Source: an uncultured Bacilli bacterium
GTDB taxonomy: Bacteria; Bacillota_I; Bacilli_A; RF39; UBA660
Length of the DNA: 64,000 nucleotides
Assembly: GCA_947588765.1 (NCBI GenBank)
Contig: CANPZG010000002.1
Location: 9,794 to 73,793, forward strand
Direction: 5' to 3'
Position numbers and translations under genes: made by a program. A model generated the notes under the pieces. That model ran no database searches. It worked only from the letters and a program-made list of their open reading frames with translations, and was not told the origin of the DNA. Positions 28,940 to 53,770 of the stretch are shown here, in pieces; the first letter of the stretch is position 1; each line of letters opens with the position of its first letter.

Positions 28940-29251
28940 ATGGAAAGTAAAAAATTTAAAATGATAGATGAAGGATTTAAATGTATTTTATGTGGTGAAA
29001 TGGTTGAACCTTTAAAGTATAGTGCCAGAGATCATTGTCCCTATTGTTTAACTAGTATCCATATTGATATAAACCCTGGTGATAGATTAAATGAATGTAA
29101 AGGTATTTTAAAACCCATTGATATTGAAAAATATAAAGATACTTTTAAAATAATATATAAATGTGATAAATGTGGTATGATTCATAAAAATATCATGGCT
29201 AGTGATGATGATATGGATATGATAATTAATTTATCGAAAAAGGAGAAGTAA
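28940..29251 (+). CDS. RNHCP-domain zinc-ribbon protein
   Basis: FKCILCGE...ARDHCPYCLTSIHID...CDKCG fits the RNHCP domain pattern. ATG 28940 sits behind AGGTG. Its stop (TAA, 29249-29251) overlaps the polA ATG (29251) by 1 nt. Confidence 0.65.
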   Translation: MESKKFKMIDEGFKCILCGEMVEPLKYSARDHCPYCLTSIHIDINPGDRLNECKGILKPIDIEKYKDTFKIIYKCDKCGMIHKNIMASDDDMDMIINLSKKEK

Positions 29252-31809
29252 TGAAAAAGTTAATTTTAGTTGATGGAAATAATTTAATGTTTCGTTCTTA
29301 TTATGCAACAGCCTATAATGGCAATTTAATGAAAAACTCTAAAGGGTTTCCCACGAATGCATTATATGGTTTTGTATCTATGATTAATAAGATTATGGCT
29401 GAAGAAAAACCAGTTTATATGGCTGTGGCTTTTGACATTGGTAAAAACTTTCGCAAACAAGAATACGACTTTTATAAAGAAGGAAGAATTGCTACTCCAG
29501 AAGAATTAAAAATGCAAATGCCGGTAGCACGCGAAATATTAGATGCGATGAATATTAAGCACTTAGAACTTGCTCCATACGAAGCAGATGATATAATTGG
29601 TACTTTAGTAAAAATGACAGAAAGTGATAAAGATTTTGCCTCAACTATTGTTTCTAGTGATAAAGATTTACTTCAACTTATAAGTGATGAAACGGAAGTA
29701 AAATTACTTAAGCAAGTTGGCTTTATTAGATATAATAAAGAAACTTTTAAAAAAGATTATGGGATTGAACCAATAAGAATAATTGACTTAAAGGCTTTGA
29801 TGGGCGATGCATCAGATAATATTCCAGGAGTTAAAGGAATTGGTGAAAAAACAGCTTTAAAATTATTACAAGAATATGGAACTTTAGAAAATCTATATGA
29901 TAATGTCGATAAAGTAGGAGGCAAACTTCAAGAAAAGTTAGTTAATGATAAAGAAAATGCCTTTATGAGTAAAAAGATAGCTACTATATATCGTGATGTA
30001 CCACTTAATATTAATCTTGAAGATCTACATGTTGGTAAAATAAAAGCAAGGGTGGCTAAATTATTTCAAGAATTAGAGTTTTTCTCTTTACTTAAAACAA
30101 TGATGATACCGATTAAAGATGAAGAAACTGAAGTTGAAGTAAAAGAAATTGACAATATTGATGATATCACTTTAGATGATACAATCTCTTTATATTTAGA
30201 ATTAGATGATAATAATTATCATTTAGCCCATATTTTAGGTTTAGCTATTAAAGATTCTAAAGGAAGCTATTTTATAAGAAATAATATTGTGGAAACATTA
30301 GAAAAGATAAAAAATAAAAATATTATTACTTATGATGCAAAGAAAATAATTTGTAATACGGGAGTAAAAATTAATTGTACTTTTGATGTCATGATAGCAT
30401 CATACCTATGTAATTATATTAATAAAGAAGATATCGCATTTTTAATGCAACAATTTAATTTAAAAATTGACTTTTTCGATTCTTTTATGAAATATACTGA
30501 TCGAGATGAAAAAATAGCTCAATACTTAGGTCAAAAAGTAGACTTTTTATATAATATTAAAGAAACTTTAGAAAATAAATTAAAAGAAAATAATTATTAT
30601 GATTTATTTACCAATATTGAAATGCCTTTACTTTATGTTCTAGCGGATATGGAACAAACGGGAATCAAAGTTGAAAAAGATGTTTTAGAAGAAATGAAAG
30701 TTGAATTGAATGCTCGAATTGAAGAAATAAAAACTGAAATATATAATTACGCTGGGGAAGAGTTTAATATATCTTCACCTCGCCAACTTGGAGAAATATT
30801 ATTTGATAAAATGCATTTAGCTGTAGGTAAAAAGAATAAAACTGGTTATAAAACGGATGCTAAAGTTTTAGAAAAACTAGTTGGGAAACATCCAATTATT
30901 GAAAGTATTTTATTATATCGAAATTTAACTAAAATATATTCTACTTATATTGAGGGCTTGGAAAACTTTATCTTAAAGGATGGTAAAGTTCATACTATTT
31001 ATAAACAAACTTTAACGAGAACTGGTAGACTTTCATCAGTTGATCCTAATTTACAAAATATTCCCGTAAGAGAAGAATTAGGTCGTAAAATAAGAAAAGC
31101 TTTTGTGCCAGTCGGTGATGTCTTTTTAAGTGCTGATTATTCCCAAATAGAATTAAGAATACTAGCTCATATCTCTAATTGTAAACCATTAATTGATGCT
31201 TTTAAAAATGGGGAAGACATTCATACCAAAGTAGCAAGTGATATCTATGGTATACCAGCGAGTGGAGTAACTAAAAATATGCGAAGAACAGCTAAAGCAG
31301 TAATATTTGGGATAGTCTATGGTATAAGTGGGTTTGGCCTTGGGGAAAACTTAAATATTTCACGAAAAGATGCCGATGAATTTATCAAGAAGTATTATGC
31401 TTTTTATCCCGAAGTAAAAGAATATATGGATAGTATTATTTTAAAAACTCATGATTTAGGTTATGTAACAACTTTGTTTGGTCGGAGAAGAGTAATCGAT
31501 GAAATAAATAATACTAATTATATGATTAGATCAATGGGTGAAAGAATGGCTTTAAATACGCCAATTCAAGGCACTAGTGCGGATATTATGAAACTAGCGA
31601 TGATTAATGTTTATAATCGCTTTAAGAAAGAACATATCAAAAGTAAAATTCTTTTACAAGTTCACGATGAAATAATTATTGATTGTAAAAATGAAGAACT
31701 AGATAAAATAAAACAAATAGTTAAAGAAGAAATGGAAAATGTATTTCCTTTGAATGTACCATTAAAAGTAGAAATAGATACTGGTTCTAATTGGTATGAT
31801 ACAAAATAA
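29251..31809 (+). CDS. polA: DNA polymerase I
   Basis: 852 aa. 5'-nuclease N-domain (LILVDGNNLMFRSYYA), then polymerase motifs DYSQIELRILAH, RRTAKAVIFGIVYG and QVHDE. Confidence 0.97.
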   Translation: MKKLILVDGNNLMFRSYYATAYNGNLMKNSKGFPTNALYGFVSMINKIMAEEKPVYMAVAFDIGKNFRKQEYDFYKEGRIATPEELKMQMPVAREILDAMNIKHLELAPYEADDIIGTLVKMTESDKDFASTIVSSDKDLLQLISDETEVKLLKQVGFIRYNKETFKKDYGIEPIRIIDLKALMGDASDNIPGVKGIGEKTALKLLQEYGTLENLYDNVDKVGGKLQEKLVNDKENAFMSKKIATIYRDVPLNINLEDLHVGKIKARVAKLFQELEFFSLLKTMMIPIKDEETEVEVKEIDNIDDITLDDTISLYLELDDNNYHLAHILGLAIKDSKGSYFIRNNIVETLEKIKNKNIITYDAKKIICNTGVKINCTFDVMIASYLCNYINKEDIAFLMQQFNLKIDFFDSFMKYTDRDEKIAQYLGQKVDFLYNIKETLENKLKENNYYDLFTNIEMPLLYVLADMEQTGIKVEKDVLEEMKVELNARIEEIKTEIYNYAGEEFNISSPRQLGEILFDKMHLAVGKKNKTGYKTDAKVLEKLVGKHPIIESILLYRNLTKIYSTYIEGLENFILKDGKVHTIYKQTLTRTGRLSSVDPNLQNIPVREELGRKIRKAFVPVGDVFLSADYSQIELRILAHISNCKPLIDAFKNGEDIHTKVASDIYGIPASGVTKNMRRTAKAVIFGIVYGISGFGLGENLNISRKDADEFIKKYYAFYPEVKEYMDSIILKTHDLGYVTTLFGRRRVIDEINNTNYMIRSMGERMALNTPIQGTSADIMKLAMINVYNRFKKEHIKSKILLQVHDEIIIDCKNEELDKIKQIVKEEMENVFPLNVPLKVEIDTGSNWYDTK

Positions 31810-31831
31810 TTAACAAAATTAAATTATTTAG

Positions 31832-31860
31832 TTGACAAATTGTAAATCTTATGATAAGTT
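31832..31860 (+). promoter_or_regulatory. Promoter of the toxI-toxN locus
   Basis: TTGACA (31832-31837), 17-nt spacer, extended -10 TGATAAGTT (31852-31860). Confidence 0.65.
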
Positions 31861-31885
31861 TATATTGCATATAGAAATATATGCC

Positions 31886-31996
31886 AAAAGCGGTGAATCC
31901 AGCCATTAAGTGGAAACTAAAAAAGCGGTGAATCCAGCCATGAAATTGGAAGCTAAAAAAGCGGTGTACCCGGCCATTAAACTGGGAACTAAAAAA
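31886..31996 (+). ncRNA. toxI: ToxI-like antitoxin RNA: three tandem 35/36-nt repeats
   Basis: GCGGTG starts at 31890, 31925 and 31961 (periods 35 and 36 nt). Each unit ends in ACTAAAAAA. The array lies directly upstream of a ToxN/AbiQ gene, the canonical type III TA layout. Confidence 0.8.
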
Positions 31997-31999
31997 GTA

Positions 32000-32030
32000 G
32001 GATTAGAGAAAACACTCTAATCCTTTAATT
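32000..32030 (+). terminator. Intra-operon terminator between toxI and toxN
   Basis: GGATTAGAG (32000-32008) / CTCTAATCC (32015-32023), followed by TTTAATT. Confidence 0.7.
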
Positions 32031-32049
32031 AAAATAGGGGGAATTAATT

Positions 32050-32556
32050 ATGTTATTTAAATTTTTAATTGTTAATGTTGATAGTAATTATTGTGATTTT
32101 TTAAGAAAGTATGATACTAAAGTACCATATAATAAGGCTAATAAGGAAACTAGACCTTTTATTGGAGTTTTATTTTGGATAGGAGATATTGAATATTTTG
32201 CTCCTTTATCTAGTCCTAAAGCTAAACATATAAAGATGCGTAATACTATTGATTTTGTTAAAATTGATGGTGGTAAATTAGGAGCAATTAATTTTAATAA
32301 TATGATTCCAGTAAAAAAAGGAAACTATAAACTAGTTAATTTGGATGTTCCAAATGCTGATAAATATATTACTATGATAAAGAAACAATTATTATGGTTA
32401 AATAAACATAGACTTCAAATACTTTTTAAAGCTGATAGATTGTATGATTATTATCTAGCGAATCTATTACCAGATAACATTAAAAATCGTTGTTGTAATT
32501 TTAAATTATTAGAAGAAAAGTGTGAAGAATATAATAAAAATATTGTTAATACCTAG
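32050..32556 (+). CDS. toxN: Type III toxin-antitoxin endoribonuclease, ToxN/AbiQ family
   Basis: 168 aa. YCDFLRKYDTKVP, RPFIGVLFWIGDIEYFAPLSSPKAKH, GAINFNNMIPV and CCNFKLLEEK each align with Pectobacterium ToxN blocks (YIEYLKEFDDKVP, AFIGIV..YLAPLTSPK, GLINLKFMIPI, CNFSLLEEK). Confidence 0.9.
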   Translation: MLFKFLIVNVDSNYCDFLRKYDTKVPYNKANKETRPFIGVLFWIGDIEYFAPLSSPKAKHIKMRNTIDFVKIDGGKLGAINFNNMIPVKKGNYKLVNLDVPNADKYITMIKKQLLWLNKHRLQILFKADRLYDYYLANLLPDNIKNRCCNFKLLEEKCEEYNKNIVNT

Positions 32557-32591
32557 TGTATTATATATGCATAAGTAATTATGCTAAAAAA

Positions 32592-32655
32592 GTAGGGATA
32601 CCTAACCGTCAAATAGGAACTAAAAAAGATACTAGAGAGCACACTCTAGTTTTTA
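32592..32655 (+). ncRNA. Orphan ToxI-like single repeat plus hairpin terminator (downstream of toxN, upstream of mutM)
   Basis: The 36-nt GTAGGGATACCTAACCGTCAAATAGGAACTAAAAAA (32592-32627) aligns with the toxI units. It is followed by hairpin ACTAGAG (32631-32637) / CTCTAGT (32644-32650) and TTTT. Confidence 0.55.
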
Positions 32656-32717
32656 GTTGCAAAACTATCTTTTGTTTTAGTAAAAATAATTGTATAATTA
32701 ATAGGGAAGTGATAATA

Positions 32718-33536
32718 ATGCCAGAAATAGCAGAAGTTGAAACAGTAAGAAACACTTTAAAAAGACAAATATTAAATAAGAAAATTAAAAGTGTAAATGT
32801 AAGATATAATAAAATGATTGAAAGTGATATTAATACTTTTGAAAAAGGCTTAATTGGTGATGAATTTATTGATATTAAAAGAAGAGGAAAATGGTTAATT
32901 TTTGAATTACATAATCATTATTTATTATCTCATTTAAGAATGGAAGGTAAGTTTTTCTTAAAAAATAGTGCTGAAGAAATAATTAAACATGAACATGTAA
33001 TTATAACATTTATAGATAATACGGATTTAAGATATCATGATACTAGAAAGTTTGGCAGAATGAATCTAATTAAAAAAGAAGATTTAGAAAATACGGAATG
33101 TATTAAAAAACAAGGTTTAGAACCGGGAGATAAGAATTTAACTAGTAAGTATTTATTAACTAAATTTAAAAATAAAAAGTTACCAATAAAAACTGTATTA
33201 TTAGATCAAACAATTATAAGTGGCTTAGGAAATATCTACGTTAATGAAGTATTATTTTATGCAAAAATTAACCCTTTAAAAGAAGCTGGCAAAATTACAG
33301 ATAAAGAAGCTAATTTAATTGCTGAAGGAGCAAATACTATCATTAAAGAAGCGATAAAAATGGGTGGTACAACAATTAAAAGTTATACTTCATCTTTAGG
33401 GGTAACTGGTCGTTTTCAAAATAAATTAAAGGTTCATAAAAAAGAAGGACAACCTTGTCCTATCTGTAATACACCAATCGAAAATGTTAAAATTAATGGT
33501 CGAAGTACTTATTTTTGCCCTCAATGTCAAAAGTAA
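32718..33536 (+). CDS. mutM: Formamidopyrimidine-DNA glycosylase
   Basis: True start is MPEIAEVETV (catalytic Pro2) at 32718, behind GGGAAG and a TGTATAAT -10 (32691-32698). C-terminal zinc finger CPICNT...YFCPQCQ. The ORF-track start at 32556 is an extension. Confidence 0.93.
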   Translation: MPEIAEVETVRNTLKRQILNKKIKSVNVRYNKMIESDINTFEKGLIGDEFIDIKRRGKWLIFELHNHYLLSHLRMEGKFFLKNSAEEIIKHEHVIITFIDNTDLRYHDTRKFGRMNLIKKEDLENTECIKKQGLEPGDKNLTSKYLLTKFKNKKLPIKTVLLDQTIISGLGNIYVNEVLFYAKINPLKEAGKITDKEANLIAEGANTIIKEAIKMGGTTIKSYTSSLGVTGRFQNKLKVHKKEGQPCPICNTPIENVKINGRSTYFCPQCQK

Positions 33537-35634: not shown

Positions 35635-36588
35635 ATGAAAAAAAGATTTAAGAGTAGAAGTAAAGTTAAAATATTTGTTTTAAGATTCCTTAGTTTAGGA
35701 GCAATCCTTTTGTTTTCTTTTTGGTTAGTTTTTAAAGTCTTATATCAAAAAATAGATTTTGATATAAATAATGAGAAATATTTACAGTTTTTAATTAATG
35801 ATGGGATTGGTAGTTATAGTATTGGGGATATTGCTTCCTTAAATAGTACGGAGTTTTTATTAAAGTATTCTTTAGGTATTGATAAAGTAAGTAATTTAGT
35901 ATCTAAAGAAGTGGAAAGTGAGATAAGTGAGCCTGAGGTTGAGGTATCCCCAAAAATAGAACCTACAATTTATTTATATAATTCGCATCAAACGGAAGGC
36001 TATAAAACTAATTTTTTGGAAAGTTTTAATATTAATAATACCGTTTTAATTGCTTCTTATATATTAAAAGAGTATTTAAATGATTTAGGAATAAATACTA
36101 TTGTCGAAGAACAAAAAATAGCTGATATCTTAAATAAAAATAATTGGAAATATGGCTATTCTTATAAAGCTAGTAGATTGCTGATGGAAGAAGCTAAAAA
36201 GAATAATCCGTCTTTAGAAATGTTTATTGATATCCACCGGGATTCTTCAGCCTATAAAAATACGGTCACGGAAATTGAAGGAAAAAAGTATGCTCGAGTT
36301 TTGTTTGTAGTTGGGTTAGAACACACGAATTACGAGGTTAACCTTAATGAGGCAAAAAAAATAAATGAAAAAATAAAAGCTTTCAATGTTTCTTTAAGTC
36401 GAGGGATAATGCAAAAGAAAGGTCCGGGTGTTAATGGCATCTATAATCAAGATTTTGATAAATATACATTTTTGATGGAAATCGGAGGACAATACAATAC
36501 GATTGAAGAAATTAATAATACTTTAAAAGTTTTAGCTAATGTTATTTATGAATATACGACGGAGGAATTTAATGAAAAAACAACCTAA
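35635..36588 (+). CDS. spoIIP: Stage II sporulation protein P
   Basis: IYLYNSHQTEGY, IDIHRDS, RVLFVVGLEH, GIYNQDF and LMEIGGQYNTIEE match the SpoIIP family. Position next to rpsT/lepA as in Bacillus. Confidence 0.85.
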   Translation: MKKRFKSRSKVKIFVLRFLSLGAILLFSFWLVFKVLYQKIDFDINNEKYLQFLINDGIGSYSIGDIASLNSTEFLLKYSLGIDKVSNLVSKEVESEISEPEVEVSPKIEPTIYLYNSHQTEGYKTNFLESFNINNTVLIASYILKEYLNDLGINTIVEEQKIADILNKNNWKYGYSYKASRLLMEEAKKNNPSLEMFIDIHRDSSAYKNTVTEIEGKKYARVLFVVGLEHTNYEVNLNEAKKINEKIKAFNVSLSRGIMQKKGPGVNGIYNQDFDKYTFLMEIGGQYNTIEEINNTLKVLANVIYEYTTEEFNEKTT

Positions 36589-52522: not shown

Positions 52523-53653
52523 ATGAATTTAAAAAATATTAATTTATATAAATTAAGAACTCTATTAGAAAAAAATAACAATTATGTTGAACTTAATAAT
52601 TTAGTTACAGAAGTATTAACTGATATTTATGGGAATAATACCAAAATTGATTACAATTTTTTTCATGATTTAAAAATTAGTGATAGTAATATTAAATTTC
52701 TTCTTGATTTAGAACGGCAAAGTAAAAATGATAGTGAGAGATTAAAAGTTAAAAAAATATTTTTAACTTTAGCCATTAGTGGGGCTCAACCTAATGAATT
52801 ATTTGTGAAATATGCTAAAGAAAATTCCCAAGATTTAGAAATTCTTTCAACTTTGTTTGTTCGCGATTTAGTCACTCTAGAGGAAATAAATGAGGCAATA
52901 AATTCTACGGATAGTATTGCTAAAATATGTTTTGAAGTTCTAGAAACTGGTCTTAAAAAATTTGATTTAAATGTTGTAAAGGAAAGAATAATTTATTTAT
53001 TAAAAAATGGAAATGTGACGGCTCAAGATTATAAATATCTTTTTAAGTTTTTAAAAGAAAATGAAGATAAAGATATTGATATTATTGATGAAGTAATAAA
53101 TAAAAAAGAAGCTTATCCATATTTATATAATTATTTCAAATATGTATTTACAATTTATACAGGAAAAATTAATTTTGATGAAAATCTTAAATATATTGAA
53201 CCTACATCTAAAAAAATGGTATATTGTTTAAACGAATATCCAATGTTATATAAACTTTATAATTTATTTGTTTATCAAAGAGAAGATAAAACAATAAAAT
53301 ATTCTTTTAATAAATTTAAATGTAGTGAATATAGAGAAATAGATGATCTAATTCTTTTAATTGAAAAATTAGAAAGAGAAATTTTAACAGGTATAAAAAA
53401 TGGGGTAGTAACTGATGTAGCCTTATTTTTAGAAATATTTAATAATCATAATGATAAAGCAACATTTGATGAAATAAAAACAGAAATTATGAATGCTTGG
53501 ATTAATAATGAAAATATGATAGCTTATGAAAAATATAAATATTTAATATTTAGAGATTATTTAAATTATTATGATAGTTTTACTAAAAAAATAGATGAAA
53601 CTTATGAAGAAGAAATAGAGACTCTAAAAAGAAAAAAGATTAATATTAATTGA
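52523..53653 (+). CDS. Hypothetical protein (376 aa)
   Basis: Clean ORF behind AAGGAAG. No motif recognised. Confidence 0.55.
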   Translation: MNLKNINLYKLRTLLEKNNNYVELNNLVTEVLTDIYGNNTKIDYNFFHDLKISDSNIKFLLDLERQSKNDSERLKVKKIFLTLAISGAQPNELFVKYAKENSQDLEILSTLFVRDLVTLEEINEAINSTDSIAKICFEVLETGLKKFDLNVVKERIIYLLKNGNVTAQDYKYLFKFLKENEDKDIDIIDEVINKKEAYPYLYNYFKYVFTIYTGKINFDENLKYIEPTSKKMVYCLNEYPMLYKLYNLFVYQREDKTIKYSFNKFKCSEYREIDDLILLIEKLEREILTGIKNGVVTDVALFLEIFNNHNDKATFDEIKTEIMNAWINNENMIAYEKYKYLIFRDYLNYYDSFTKKIDETYEEEIETLKRKKININ

Positions 53654-53705
53654 CATATTCTAAAAAAAGGTTATATTATAGATACATAAGAAATTATGTT
53701 AAAAA

Positions 53706-53770
53706 GTGGTGTTTCCCGGCCATATACTAGGGACCTAAAAAAGCTAGAGATTTTCTCTAGTTTTGTTTTG
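53706..53770 (+). ncRNA. Orphan ToxI-like single repeat plus hairpin terminator with its own promoter-like element
   Basis: GTGGTGTTTCCCGGCCATATACTAGGGACCTAAAAAA (53706-53742) aligns with toxI unit 3. Followed by hairpin CTAGAGA (53744-53750) / TCTCTAG (53754-53760) and TTTTGTTTT. TTGACA at 53650-53655 lies upstream. Confidence 0.55.

What the first reader, a model, noticed from the sequence alone, without database searches (positions are those of the whole stretch)
32592..32655. Orphan ToxI-like repeat plus homologous hairpin immediately downstream of toxN and upstream of mutM
36 nt after the toxN stop there is a 36-nt sequence: GTAGGGATACCTAACCGTCAAATAGGAACTAAAAAA. It aligns position-for-position with the toxI units, sharing the G-Y-R-G-G start, the CC...GG internal pairing with compensatory changes, and the GGAACTAAAAAA end.

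A hairpin follows (ACTAGAG-AGCACA-CTCTAGT). Its TAGAG/CTCTA core is the same as that of the toxI terminator (ATTAGAG-AAAACA-CTCTAAT). So the 'last repeat + terminator' module occurs on both sides of toxN.

Possible explanations:
- The cassette integrated into, or arose from, a pre-existing single-repeat sRNA locus.
- The module is a second, read-through-expressed antitoxin dose.
- It is a ToxN-cleavable leader affecting mutM.
Basis: partly seen in the sequence, partly recalled or inferred. Interest (0 to 1): 0.6.

Follow-up and report, generated by a model that had tools for sequence, protein, structure and literature searches.

The report
Relic antitoxin repeat behind toxN
The 36-base repeat and hairpin just after the toxN toxin gene are the worn-down remains of the RNA-antitoxin gene of a second toxin-antitoxin cassette that has lost its toxin gene, which is ordinary gene decay but a clear case of the toxin going first and the antitoxin lingering.

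Summary
Unit 32592-32627 and hairpin 32631-32650 match the upstream toxI region far beyond chance (local alignment 46 against 20.3±2.7 in shuffles; nhmmer genome-wide E 1e-4).

It is not a copy of the upstream repeat. It belongs to a second, paralogous repeat type ("B"). A model built only from B units of other species scores it 52 bits. A model built from the upstream A units scores it 18.6 bits.

A contig about 95% identical in the flanks (L078) carries, at exactly this place, a complete second cassette between toxN-A and mutM:
- a promoter
- a leader hairpin
- three B units
- the identical hairpin
- a 169-aa toxN-B

Sister strains about 99% identical have 3, 2 or 1 units and no toxN-B. The window therefore holds the last stage of decay. 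The -35 box, toxN-B and two units are gone.

The relic diverges at about the neutral rate, while the functional toxI-A array is almost invariant. Its hairpin probably now terminates toxN-A transcripts.

Across the genus, 19 of 52 toxI-like arrays have no toxN behind them. No RNA data could be obtained.

The parts
31832..31860 (+). Promoter of the intact cassette toxIN-A (TTGACA, 17 nt, TAAGTT)
   Evidence: Read from the sequence. The same TTGACA box is conserved in G026, G036, G075, G025 and L078.
31867..31884 (+). 5' leader hairpin of toxI-A (GCATAT-AGAA-ATATGC)
   Evidence: Read from the sequence. An equivalent hairpin precedes every A and B array in relatives, with changed but still complementary arms.
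31890..31996 (+). toxI-A antitoxin array: three units of 35, 36 and 36 nt
   Evidence: TRF gives period 36 and 3.1 copies. The covariance model scores the units 47-62 bits. The stem at unit positions 9-13/22-26 is 96.9% paired, with CG<->UA covariation. The array is 106/107 identical to L078.
31999..32024 (+). Hairpin between toxI-A and toxN-A (10-bp stem, -13.4 kcal/mol, poor U-tract), the leaky attenuator typical of type III loci
   Evidence: The role is inferred from the published architecture (PMC3401426, PMC5086642).
32050..32556 (+). toxN-A, a 168-aa ToxN/AbiQ-family endoribonuclease toxin and the only ToxN in this genome
   Evidence: Pfam ToxN_toxin 2.9e-50, full length. PADLOC AbiQ 2.3e-36. 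Best solved relative is ToxN of B. thuringiensis, 4ATO, 6.5e-23. It is the single ToxN hit in the genome.
32559..32564 (+). Remnant -10-like box (TATTAT) of the former toxI-B promoter; the -35 is missing
   Evidence: Alignment A6 shows a 26-nt gap in the window where L078 and G025 carry TTGATT. The nearest -35-like hexamer, TTGTTA 32543-32548, lies inside toxN-A and only 10 nt upstream.
32569..32584 (+). Relic leader hairpin of toxI-B (GCATAA-GTAA-TTATGC)
   Evidence: Fold of -5.6 kcal/mol, z -2.6. It is homologous to the leaders of toxI-B in L078, G025 and G026.
32585..32591 (+). A-run (UAAAAAA) at the 5' boundary of the unit, the presumed ToxN processing site
   Evidence: Read from the sequence. 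ToxN enzymes cut A-rich sites, AAA|AA for ToxN of B. thuringiensis (PMC8860590). Cleavage here is inferred.
32592..32627 (+). Single surviving toxI-B unit (the finding)
   Evidence: B-only model R3 gives 52.1 bits, E 1.6e-10. A-only model R1 gives 18.6 bits. The unit is 32/36 identical to B units of G026 and G025. It is identical to the last unit of the 2- and 3-unit arrays in sister strains L058-L060.
32631..32655 (+). toxI-B terminator hairpin (7-bp stem, 6-nt loop, then UUUUA); probably now the terminator of toxN-A transcripts
   Evidence: Terminator scan. Fold of -7.9 kcal/mol, with the stem extended by A-run/U-run pairing in the 106-nt fold. The stem-loop is identical to the toxI-B terminators of L078 and G074.
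32656..32662 (+). Deletion scar where toxN-B used to be (about 590 nt are missing relative to L078)
   Evidence: Alignment with L078 and G025. The exact break points are uncertain.
32663..32717 (+). mutM promoter and 5' UTR (TTTTGTTTTAGTAAAAATAATTGTATAAT ... GGGAAGTGA)
   Evidence: Conserved in G036, G075, L078 and L058-60. It lies downstream of the hairpin.
32718..33536 (+). mutM (fpg), 272 aa, starting Met-Pro-Glu
   Evidence: Pfam Fapy_DNA_glyco, H2TH and zf-FPG. The start is set by the catalytic N-terminal proline of Fpg (established knowledge). The longer open frame from 32556 is not the gene.

Best explanation
The unit and hairpin are what is left of toxI-B, the RNA-antitoxin gene of a second ToxIN/AbiQ-type cassette. 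That cassette once lay in tandem behind toxIN-A, between polA and mutM.

In this lineage the following were lost:
- the toxI-B promoter's -35 region
- the toxN-B gene
- two of the three repeat units

What remains:
- a -10-like box
- the leader hairpin
- one unit flanked by A-runs
- the Rho-independent terminator

The order toxin-first, antitoxin-later is what a toxin-antitoxin pair allows, because losing the antitoxin first would be lethal.

Present-day role, all inferred. The module lies in the 3' untranslated region of toxN-A, and its hairpin probably ends toxN-A transcripts ahead of mutM's own promoter. The unit itself has no cognate toxin in the genome and is drifting.

Shown: homology, B-type identity, the intact orthologous cassette, the copy-number series and the near-neutral divergence. 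Inferred: the direction of change, termination, and the lack of antitoxin function.
For: 1. Repeat type. The B-only covariance model, built from other species, scores the unit 52.1 bits. The A-only model scores it 18.6 bits. The window's own A units score only 15-29 bits on the B model. Identity is 32/36 to B units and 24-26/37 to A units.

2. Intact orthologue. L078 is 96.2% identical in polA and 94.9% in mutM, and its ToxN-A is 98.1% identical. At the same place it carries TTGATT-17-TATATT, a leader hairpin, three near-identical B units, the identical hairpin ACTAGAGAGCACACTCTAGT and a 169-aa toxN-B, followed by the same mutM promoter. G025 has the same toxIN-A/toxIN-B tandem.

3. Decay series. 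Contigs about 99% identical have 3 (L059), 2 (L058, L060) or 1 (L057, window) units. All lack toxN-B. All end in the window's exact unit and hairpin.

4. Relaxed constraint, measured against L078:
- toxI-A array: 1/107 differences (p 2.8e-4 against third codon positions)
- relic B array: 8/107 differences
- whole B module: 21/176 = 11.9%
- third codon positions: 10.3% (B module against these, p 0.5)
Extra units in sister strains carry a C>A change at a position invariant in all the functional A and B units aligned here (A1, A5).

5. No cognate toxin. ToxN-A is the only ToxN in the genome. It is 52.7% identical to L078's ToxN-B and 50-52% identical to G025's.

6. The pattern is general. Of 52 toxI-like arrays in 56 genomes of the genus, 27 precede an intact toxN, 6 precede a broken one and 19 precede none. 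G033 compared with G074, and G019 compared with G035/G021/G030, are further toxN deletions at orthologous sites.

7. Empty polA-mutM sites are 8-15 nt long.
Against: - Read-through expression, termination at the hairpin and the absence of a processed 36-nt RNA are all untested.
- The surviving unit keeps the core positions shared by A and B units. Its one stem change is compensatory: C-G becomes U-A, at the pair that also alternates CG/UA among functional A units. Both A-run boundaries are intact. A single ToxI repeat can be enough to inhibit ToxN, as predicted from genetic studies and tested with single-repeat clones for other type III loci (PMC3401426).
- Against the more distant G026, the B module is more conserved (0.86-0.91) than third codon positions (0.64-0.71). 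The deletion junctions differ, however, which points to independent and possibly recent losses.
- The direction (loss, not gain, of toxN-B) rests on parsimony.
- Relatives G034 and G074 manage without any terminator between toxN-A and mutM, so the hairpin is not indispensable.
Confidence: 0.82

Rival explanations
1. The module is a retained, functional orphan antitoxin. On this view the single B unit is cut out of toxN-A read-through transcripts at its two A-runs. It then either tops up inhibition of ToxN-A or gives standing immunity against B-type ToxN arriving on mobile elements or phages (an 'anti-addiction' role).
For: - The unit keeps the conserved core, a compensatory stem change, both A-run boundaries, the leader hairpin and the terminator.
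- Its 3' tail GGAACUAAAAAAG is identical to that of A unit 3, and ToxN reads ToxI overhangs base-specifically (PMC8860590).
- This genome has two further toxin-less toxI-like genes with good promoters, at window 53650-53770 and on G000:C3.
- About a third of the arrays in the genus are toxin-less.
- A single repeat can be enough to inhibit ToxN (PMC3401426).
- Phage TE escapes ToxIN by means of pseudo-ToxI repeats (PMC5086642).
Against: - The B module diverges at about the neutral rate, while toxI-A is nearly frozen.
- Units are being lost (3, then 2, then 1) and are picking up changes at otherwise invariant positions.
- The -35 box is gone.
- Published ToxI and CptI antitoxins are highly specific, with no cross-talk between the Pectobacterium and Bacillus systems (PMC5086642). 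ToxN-A and ToxN-B are only 53% identical.
- Older orphan arrays such as the one in G064 are visibly degenerate.
Confidence: 0.1
2. One reading: the downstream module is a duplicate of the upstream toxI-A 'last repeat + terminator', or a pre-existing single-repeat sRNA locus into which the toxIN cassette integrated.
For: An 84-nt significant alignment links the two intergenic regions, and they share an exact 13-mer.
Against: - The unit fits the B model far better than the A model (52 against 18.6 bits).
- Empty sites are 8-15 nt long with no such element, and relatives with only toxIN-A lack it.
- The full B cassette sits at this place in L078 and G025.
- No other toxIN locus examined has a unit downstream of toxN.
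Confidence: 0.02
3. The unit is a cis-acting, ToxN-cleavable leader that couples mutM expression to ToxN activity.
For: It lies 90 nt upstream of mutM on the same strand. A-runs are potential ToxN sites (PMC8860590).
Against: - A terminator hairpin and a conserved promoter region (…TGTATAAT) lie between the unit and mutM.
- The same promoter drives mutM or the neighbouring peptidase C26-like ORF (hereafter 'C26') in relatives that have no unit.
- Unit number varies from 1 to 3 among near-identical strains.
- Orphan arrays in the genus sit in front of many unrelated housekeeping genes.
Confidence: 0.03

Closest known systems
ToxIN of Bacillus thuringiensis pAW63 (ToxN_Bt, PDB 4ATO) and AbiQ/antiQ of Lactococcus lactis (PDB 4GLK): type III toxin-antitoxin / abortive-infection systems
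   Same: - toxN-A is a full-length ToxN/AbiQ protein.
- Units are 34-36 nt, end in an A-run and are followed by a hairpin.
- A Lactococcus plasmid AbiQ locus has units GCGGTGAATCTCCACCATCAAGTGAGAATCAAAAAA, close to the A units here.
- The relic unit has the same layout as these units.
   Different: - The relic is a single unit, not an array.
- It has no toxin gene behind it and no -35 box.
- It lies downstream of another toxN.
- The Lactococcus locus has only a plain terminator after its toxN.
Tandem type III cassettes at the same site in relatives (L078: toxIN-A + toxIN-B; G025: cptIN + toxIN-A + toxIN-B)
   Same: Same genomic slot (polA-mutM), same leader, same B-type units and an identical terminator hairpin.
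   Different: The relatives keep the promoter, three units and toxN-B. The window keeps one unit and the hairpin.
Pseudo-ToxI of Pectobacterium phage TE (toxin-less ToxI-like repeats that vary in copy number)
   Same: Toxin-less ToxI-like repeats whose number changes by expansion or contraction (PMC5086642).
   Different: The phage repeats expand under selection to neutralise a host ToxN. Here the repeats are chromosomal, are contracting and drift neutrally. No phage record matches them.
Orphan or solitary antitoxins of type II systems, and chromosomal 'anti-addiction' modules (own knowledge)
   Same: The antitoxin gene outlives its toxin, which is the expected order of decay.
   Different: Those are protein antitoxins, and some have shown protective roles. 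No role is shown here. In the type III papers checked, the word 'orphan' does not occur and searches start from the toxin.

Membership tests
toxI antitoxin gene of a ToxIN/AbiQ-family type III toxin-antitoxin locus (criteria of Blower et al. 2012, PMC3401426) | A tandem array of short (about 34-36 nt) repeats | tested here: not met
   There is only one unit in the window. Sister strains have 2 or 3, and L078 has 3.
toxI antitoxin gene of a ToxIN/AbiQ-family type III toxin-antitoxin locus (criteria of Blower et al. 2012, PMC3401426) | [quoted passage not shown] | tested here: met
   Hairpin 32631-32650 plus a U-run. It is identical to the toxI-B terminators of L078 and G074.
toxI antitoxin gene of a ToxIN/AbiQ-family type III toxin-antitoxin locus (criteria of Blower et al. 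2012, PMC3401426) | A toxN-family toxin gene lies directly downstream of the terminator | tested here: not met
   mutM follows. No ToxN-B-like sequence exists anywhere in the genome. The feature is met at the orthologous site in L078 and G025.
toxI antitoxin gene of a ToxIN/AbiQ-family type III toxin-antitoxin locus (criteria of Blower et al. 2012, PMC3401426) | -35 and -10 promoter elements lie upstream of the repeats | tested here: not met
   A -10-like TATTAT is present at 32559-32564. The TTGATT -35 of L078 and G025 falls in a 26-nt gap. The promoter scan reports no + strand site here.
toxI antitoxin gene of a ToxIN/AbiQ-family type III toxin-antitoxin locus (criteria of Blower et al. 2012, PMC3401426) | The unit matches, in sequence and structure, units of arrays that do precede a toxN | tested here: met
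   R3 gives 52.1 bits, E 1.6e-10. The stem CCUA/UAGG is kept through a compensatory change.
toxI antitoxin gene of a ToxIN/AbiQ-family type III toxin-antitoxin locus (criteria of Blower et al. 2012, PMC3401426) | The RNA is processed by, binds and inhibits ToxN | not testable with these tools
   This needs co-expression or in-vitro assays.
ToxN/AbiQ toxin (for the neighbouring gene 32050-32556) | Full-length match to the ToxN_toxin/AbiQ profile, and a toxI array plus hairpin upstream | tested here: met
   Pfam 2.9e-50 over positions 3-159 of 159. PADLOC AbiQ. PDB 4ATO 6.5e-23. Array 31890-31996 and hairpin 31999-32024.

The most novel reading that the evidence does not exclude
Toxin-less toxI genes are not just debris. 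On this reading they are kept, at least for a time, as stand-alone antitoxin sRNAs in these small-genome gut Bacilli. This genome has three: 32557-32655, 53650-53770 and one on contig C3. About a third of all arrays in the genus are toxin-less. Such sRNAs would give standing immunity against ToxN toxins of incoming elements, or would buffer the resident ToxN-A. That would be a type III counterpart of chromosomal anti-addiction modules, and it is invisible to toxin-centred surveys.
Probability: 0.1. Interest if true: 0.6.

Novelty: new member of a known kind. Interest (0 to 1): 0.3.

Why it matters
For this locus: it explains an odd-looking element as decay of a known system, and it corrects the idea that toxN is flanked by two copies of one module.

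For annotation:
- The relic can be mistaken for a regulatory leader of mutM.
- It is swallowed by over-long mutM gene calls of 319-326 aa.

More generally:
- The series full cassette, then 3, 2 and 1 units, seen within about 95-99% identical genomes, is a clean natural record of how a type III toxin-antitoxin cassette dies. The toxin goes first, then the promoter, then the repeats one by one.
- The genus census suggests that toxin-less toxI arrays are common. Published type III surveys start from the toxin and so would miss them.
- The polA-mutM junction is a hot spot that can hold up to three tandem type III cassettes.

Tried and rejected
- Rfam gave no toxI-like family hit in 31000-33500, only chance-level matches.
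- RNAalifold on the mixed A+B alignment predicted no structure, because MAFFT shifts the B units by one column. I therefore tested a named stem on an A-only alignment and built separate A-only and B-only models.
- Two metagenome contigs pattern scans, one with the window unit and one with the B consensus core, found nothing.
- The phage collection has no match to the module, so a phage pseudo-ToxI origin was dropped.
- The genome-contig scan with ToxN-A gave only 54-66% relatives in uncultured Bacilli and Clostridia MAGs, and none had a downstream unit.
- I first thought toxN-B was removed by recombination between the toxI-B terminator and a similar hairpin behind toxN-B, as seen in G025. L078 has no such second hairpin, so the mechanism of the deletion stays open.
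- I first took the higher-than-synonymous conservation against G026 as a hint of selection. The closer comparison with L078 shows near-neutral divergence.
- I rejected a real N-terminal extension of MutM through the relic (open frame from 32556), because Fpg needs its N-terminal proline.

Full report
**Setting.** The window comes from a 1.27-Mb, 58-contig genome. Its relatives are titled uncultured Bacilli MAGs. The genes around the finding are:
- polA, 29251-31809
- a ToxN/AbiQ toxin gene, 32050-32556 (Pfam ToxN_toxin 2.9e-50; PADLOC AbiQ; best solved relative ToxN of B. thuringiensis, 4ATO)
- mutM/fpg, 32718-33536
- a transglutaminase-like gene on the other strand

Upstream of toxN lies a canonical type III antitoxin gene. 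It has a TTGACA-17-TAAGTT promoter, a leader hairpin, three units of 35, 36 and 36 nt (31890-31996) and a strong hairpin at 31999-32024. I call this cassette toxIN-A.

- The repeat finder puts the unit's 3' two-thirds in register with the three upstream units. It finds the hairpin cores 14/16 identical and an exact 13-mer, CTAAAAAAGTAGG, at both places.
- A local alignment of the polA-toxN and toxN-mutM spacers runs for 84 nt. It scores 46 against 20.3 ± 2.7 in 1000 dinucleotide-preserving shuffles.
- A profile of toxI units that excludes this unit retrieves it from the whole genome at E 1.1e-4.
- Rfam has no matching family.

**It is not a copy of the upstream repeat.** The unit shares only 24-26 of 36-37 positions with the window's own units. 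It shares 32/36 with a second repeat type seen in relatives, consensus GAGGGA(A/T)ACCCAACCGTTAAATGGGAACTAAAAAA, which I call B.
- A covariance model built only from A units scores A units 34-62 bits and this unit 18.6 bits.
- A model built only from B units of three other species (G025, G026, G074) scores it 52.1 bits, E 1.6e-10. The same model scores the window's A units 15-29 bits.
- The internal stem is real. In A units, positions 9-13/22-26 are 96.9% paired, with CG<->UA covariation at two pairs.
- The unit's C>U and G>A changes relative to the B consensus fall on one of those covarying pairs and keep it paired.

**What the module was.** The polA-mutM junction is a variable slot in this genus.
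- In many species the two genes are 8-15 nt apart.
- Others carry one unrelated gene: an unknown 290-aa ORF or a weak peptidase C26-like ORF ('C26' below).
- The clade closest to the window carries toxIN-A there.

G025 has toxIN-A followed directly by a complete toxIN-B. That second cassette has its own promoter, a leader hairpin, three B units, the hairpin ACTAGAGAGCAAAACTCTAGT and a toxN that is 50-52% identical to the window's ToxN-A. A cptIN cassette precedes both; its toxin matches CptN (4RMO) at 6.9e-20.

The decisive relative is contig L078 (ENA ERZ27249651). I found it by searching with ToxN-B of G025.
- It is 96.2% identical to the window in polA and 94.9% in mutM, and 98.1% in ToxN-A protein.
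- Between toxN-A and mutM it holds TTGATT-17-TATATT, a leader hairpin, three near-identical B units, a stem-loop identical to the window's and a 169-aa toxN-B.
- The same mutM promoter region as in the window follows.

**The decay series.** Contigs about 99% identical to the window, found through near-identical ToxN-A proteins, all lack toxN-B. All share the window's junctions.
- They carry 3 units (L059), 2 units (L058, L060) or 1 unit (L057, identical to the window).
- In each, the last unit is exactly the window's unit.

Relative to L078, this lineage lacks three things:
- a 26-nt stretch that contains the -35 box
- about 590 nt holding toxN-B
- up to two units

The window keeps a -10-like TATTAT (32559-32564), the leader hairpin (32569-32584), A-runs on both sides of the unit, and the terminator. 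The genome has no other ToxN-like sequence.

**Is the relic still under selection?** Against L078, third codon positions of polA, mutM and the transglutaminase gene differ at 10.3% (147/1434).
- The functional toxI-A array differs at 1/107 (p 2.8e-4 against third positions).
- The relic B array (3-unit form) differs at 8/107.
- The whole B module differs at 21/176 = 11.9%, which cannot be told apart from third positions (p 0.5).
- Two of the relic units in sister strains carry a C>A change at a position that is invariant in all the functional A and B units aligned here.

So the module drifts, while the neighbouring functional antitoxin is frozen. The comparison with the more distant G026 looked like conservation (0.86-0.91 against 0.64-0.71 at third positions). 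But G026 has a different junction behind its two B units, and L078 shows that toxN-B was still present recently in the window's lineage. The losses are therefore independent and probably recent.

**How it most likely works now (inferred).** Without a -35, the module is probably transcribed mainly as the 3' end of toxN-A mRNA. The hairpin has a 7-bp stem at -7.9 kcal/mol, lengthened by pairing of the unit's A-run with the U-run in the 106-nt fold. It is the only terminator-like structure between toxN-A and mutM. It sits just upstream of a promoter region conserved in G036, G075, L078 and the sister strains. It probably ends toxN-A transcripts and leaves mutM to its own promoter.

This is not essential, since G034 and G074 have toxN-A running into mutM with a 13-nt spacer. 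ToxN enzymes cut A-rich sites, AAA|AA for the B. thuringiensis enzyme (PMC8860590). ToxN-A could therefore release the unit, but whether it binds ToxN-A is unknown. Published ToxI and CptI antitoxins are highly selective (PMC5086642).

**The wider pattern.** I combined a covariance model of A+B units with the Pfam ToxN profile across 56 genomes of the genus. This gave 52 arrays:
- 27 precede an intact toxN.
- 6 precede a broken toxN.
- 19 precede none. Two of these are at contig ends, and a third, G012:C17, stops 29 nt after the array.

I inspected twelve of the toxin-less arrays. Most of those with enough downstream sequence have recognisable promoters and terminators. They lie in front of genes that I recognised from their N-terminal sequences, without a family search, as housekeeping genes: tyrS, dnaG, rpmB, engB, rpsD and cca. 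They range from homogeneous to badly degenerate.

Two are clear toxN deletions at orthologous sites:
- G033 against G074
- G019 against G035/G021/G030 upstream of dnaG

G075 keeps a five-unit toxI-A array at polA-mutM with no toxN. The window's own genome has two more toxin-less toxI-like genes, at 53650-53770 and on contig C3. No other toxIN locus examined has a unit downstream of toxN.

**Literature.** The type III surveys I could read define loci from the toxin outward and never use the word 'orphan' (PMC3401426, PMC5086642, PMC12283969). The only toxin-less ToxI-like repeats they discuss are the phage TE pseudo-ToxI.

**Verdict.** The thing is a relic of a second toxIN cassette. It is a degenerate member of a known family and of modest interest. 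Its main value is a well-resolved decay series and a pointer to how common toxin-less type III antitoxin genes are in this group.

Noticed in passing
window 53650-53770: A complete solo toxI-like gene upstream of nfo: TTGACA-17-TATATT, a leader hairpin ACATAAGAAATTATGT, one A-like unit GTGGTGTTTCCCGGCCATATACTAGGGACCTAAAAAA and a hairpin GCTAGAGATTTTCTCTAGT, with no toxin. Model R2 scores it 30.4 bits. It is already an earlier finding (e1-2865750).
   Followed up: partly
own genome, contig C3 about 36230-36400, minus strand (L052 about 1440-1600): A third toxin-less toxI-like mini-gene. It has TTGACA-17-TAAAAT, two units of about 33-35 nt (GTAACCCCCGACCGTTAACAGGGAAAATTAAAA and GAGGGAACCCCAACCGTCAAAAGGGAAGATTAAAA) and a hairpin followed by T7. 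A 148-aa membrane-anchored ORF with no Pfam hit follows.
   Followed up: partly
polA-mutM junction (window 31810-32717) and loci L016-L045: This junction is an insertion hot spot in the genus. Its contents vary: empty (8-15 nt), an unknown 290-aa ORF with no Pfam hit, a weak peptidase C26-like ORF, one toxIN, two toxIN, or cptIN + toxIN-A + toxIN-B + C26 in G025.
   Followed up: partly
L058, L059, L060 (strains about 99% identical downstream of codon 35 of toxN): A mosaic cassette. The first 35 or so codons of toxN and the whole upstream antitoxin differ from the window; a different, GC-richer repeat type is visible (…GCCTCCAAATGGAGGCCGCCAGTAACCGGCCTTATAGGCC…). The rest is near-identical. This suggests that antitoxin and toxin N-terminus are exchanged together by recombination.
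   Followed up: no
L017 (G036:C7): toxN-A at polA-mutM is broken by an internal direct duplication of about 32 nt (…AAAAATGCATAACACTTTAGACTTTGTTAAAA… occurs twice), which splits the ORF. The three toxI-A units and the promoter are intact.
   Followed up: no
window 32556-33536; L058 670-1629: The mutM reading frame stays open upstream through the relic (326 aa from GTG 32556). Gene callers in public assemblies call a 319-aa product. The true start must be ATG 32718 (Met-Pro-Glu…), because Fpg uses its N-terminal proline in catalysis.
   Followed up: partly
L021 (G075:C10 28472-28650): A five-unit toxI-A array with promoter and hairpin at polA-mutM but no toxN anywhere in that genome (0 PF13958 hits). 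This is another toxin-less antitoxin gene at the same slot.
   Followed up: partly
window 32631-32650, both strands: The hairpin scores as a terminator on both strands, because the unit's A-run mirrors the U-run. There is no convergent gene, so the bidirectional look is a by-product of toxI unit tails.
   Followed up: yes
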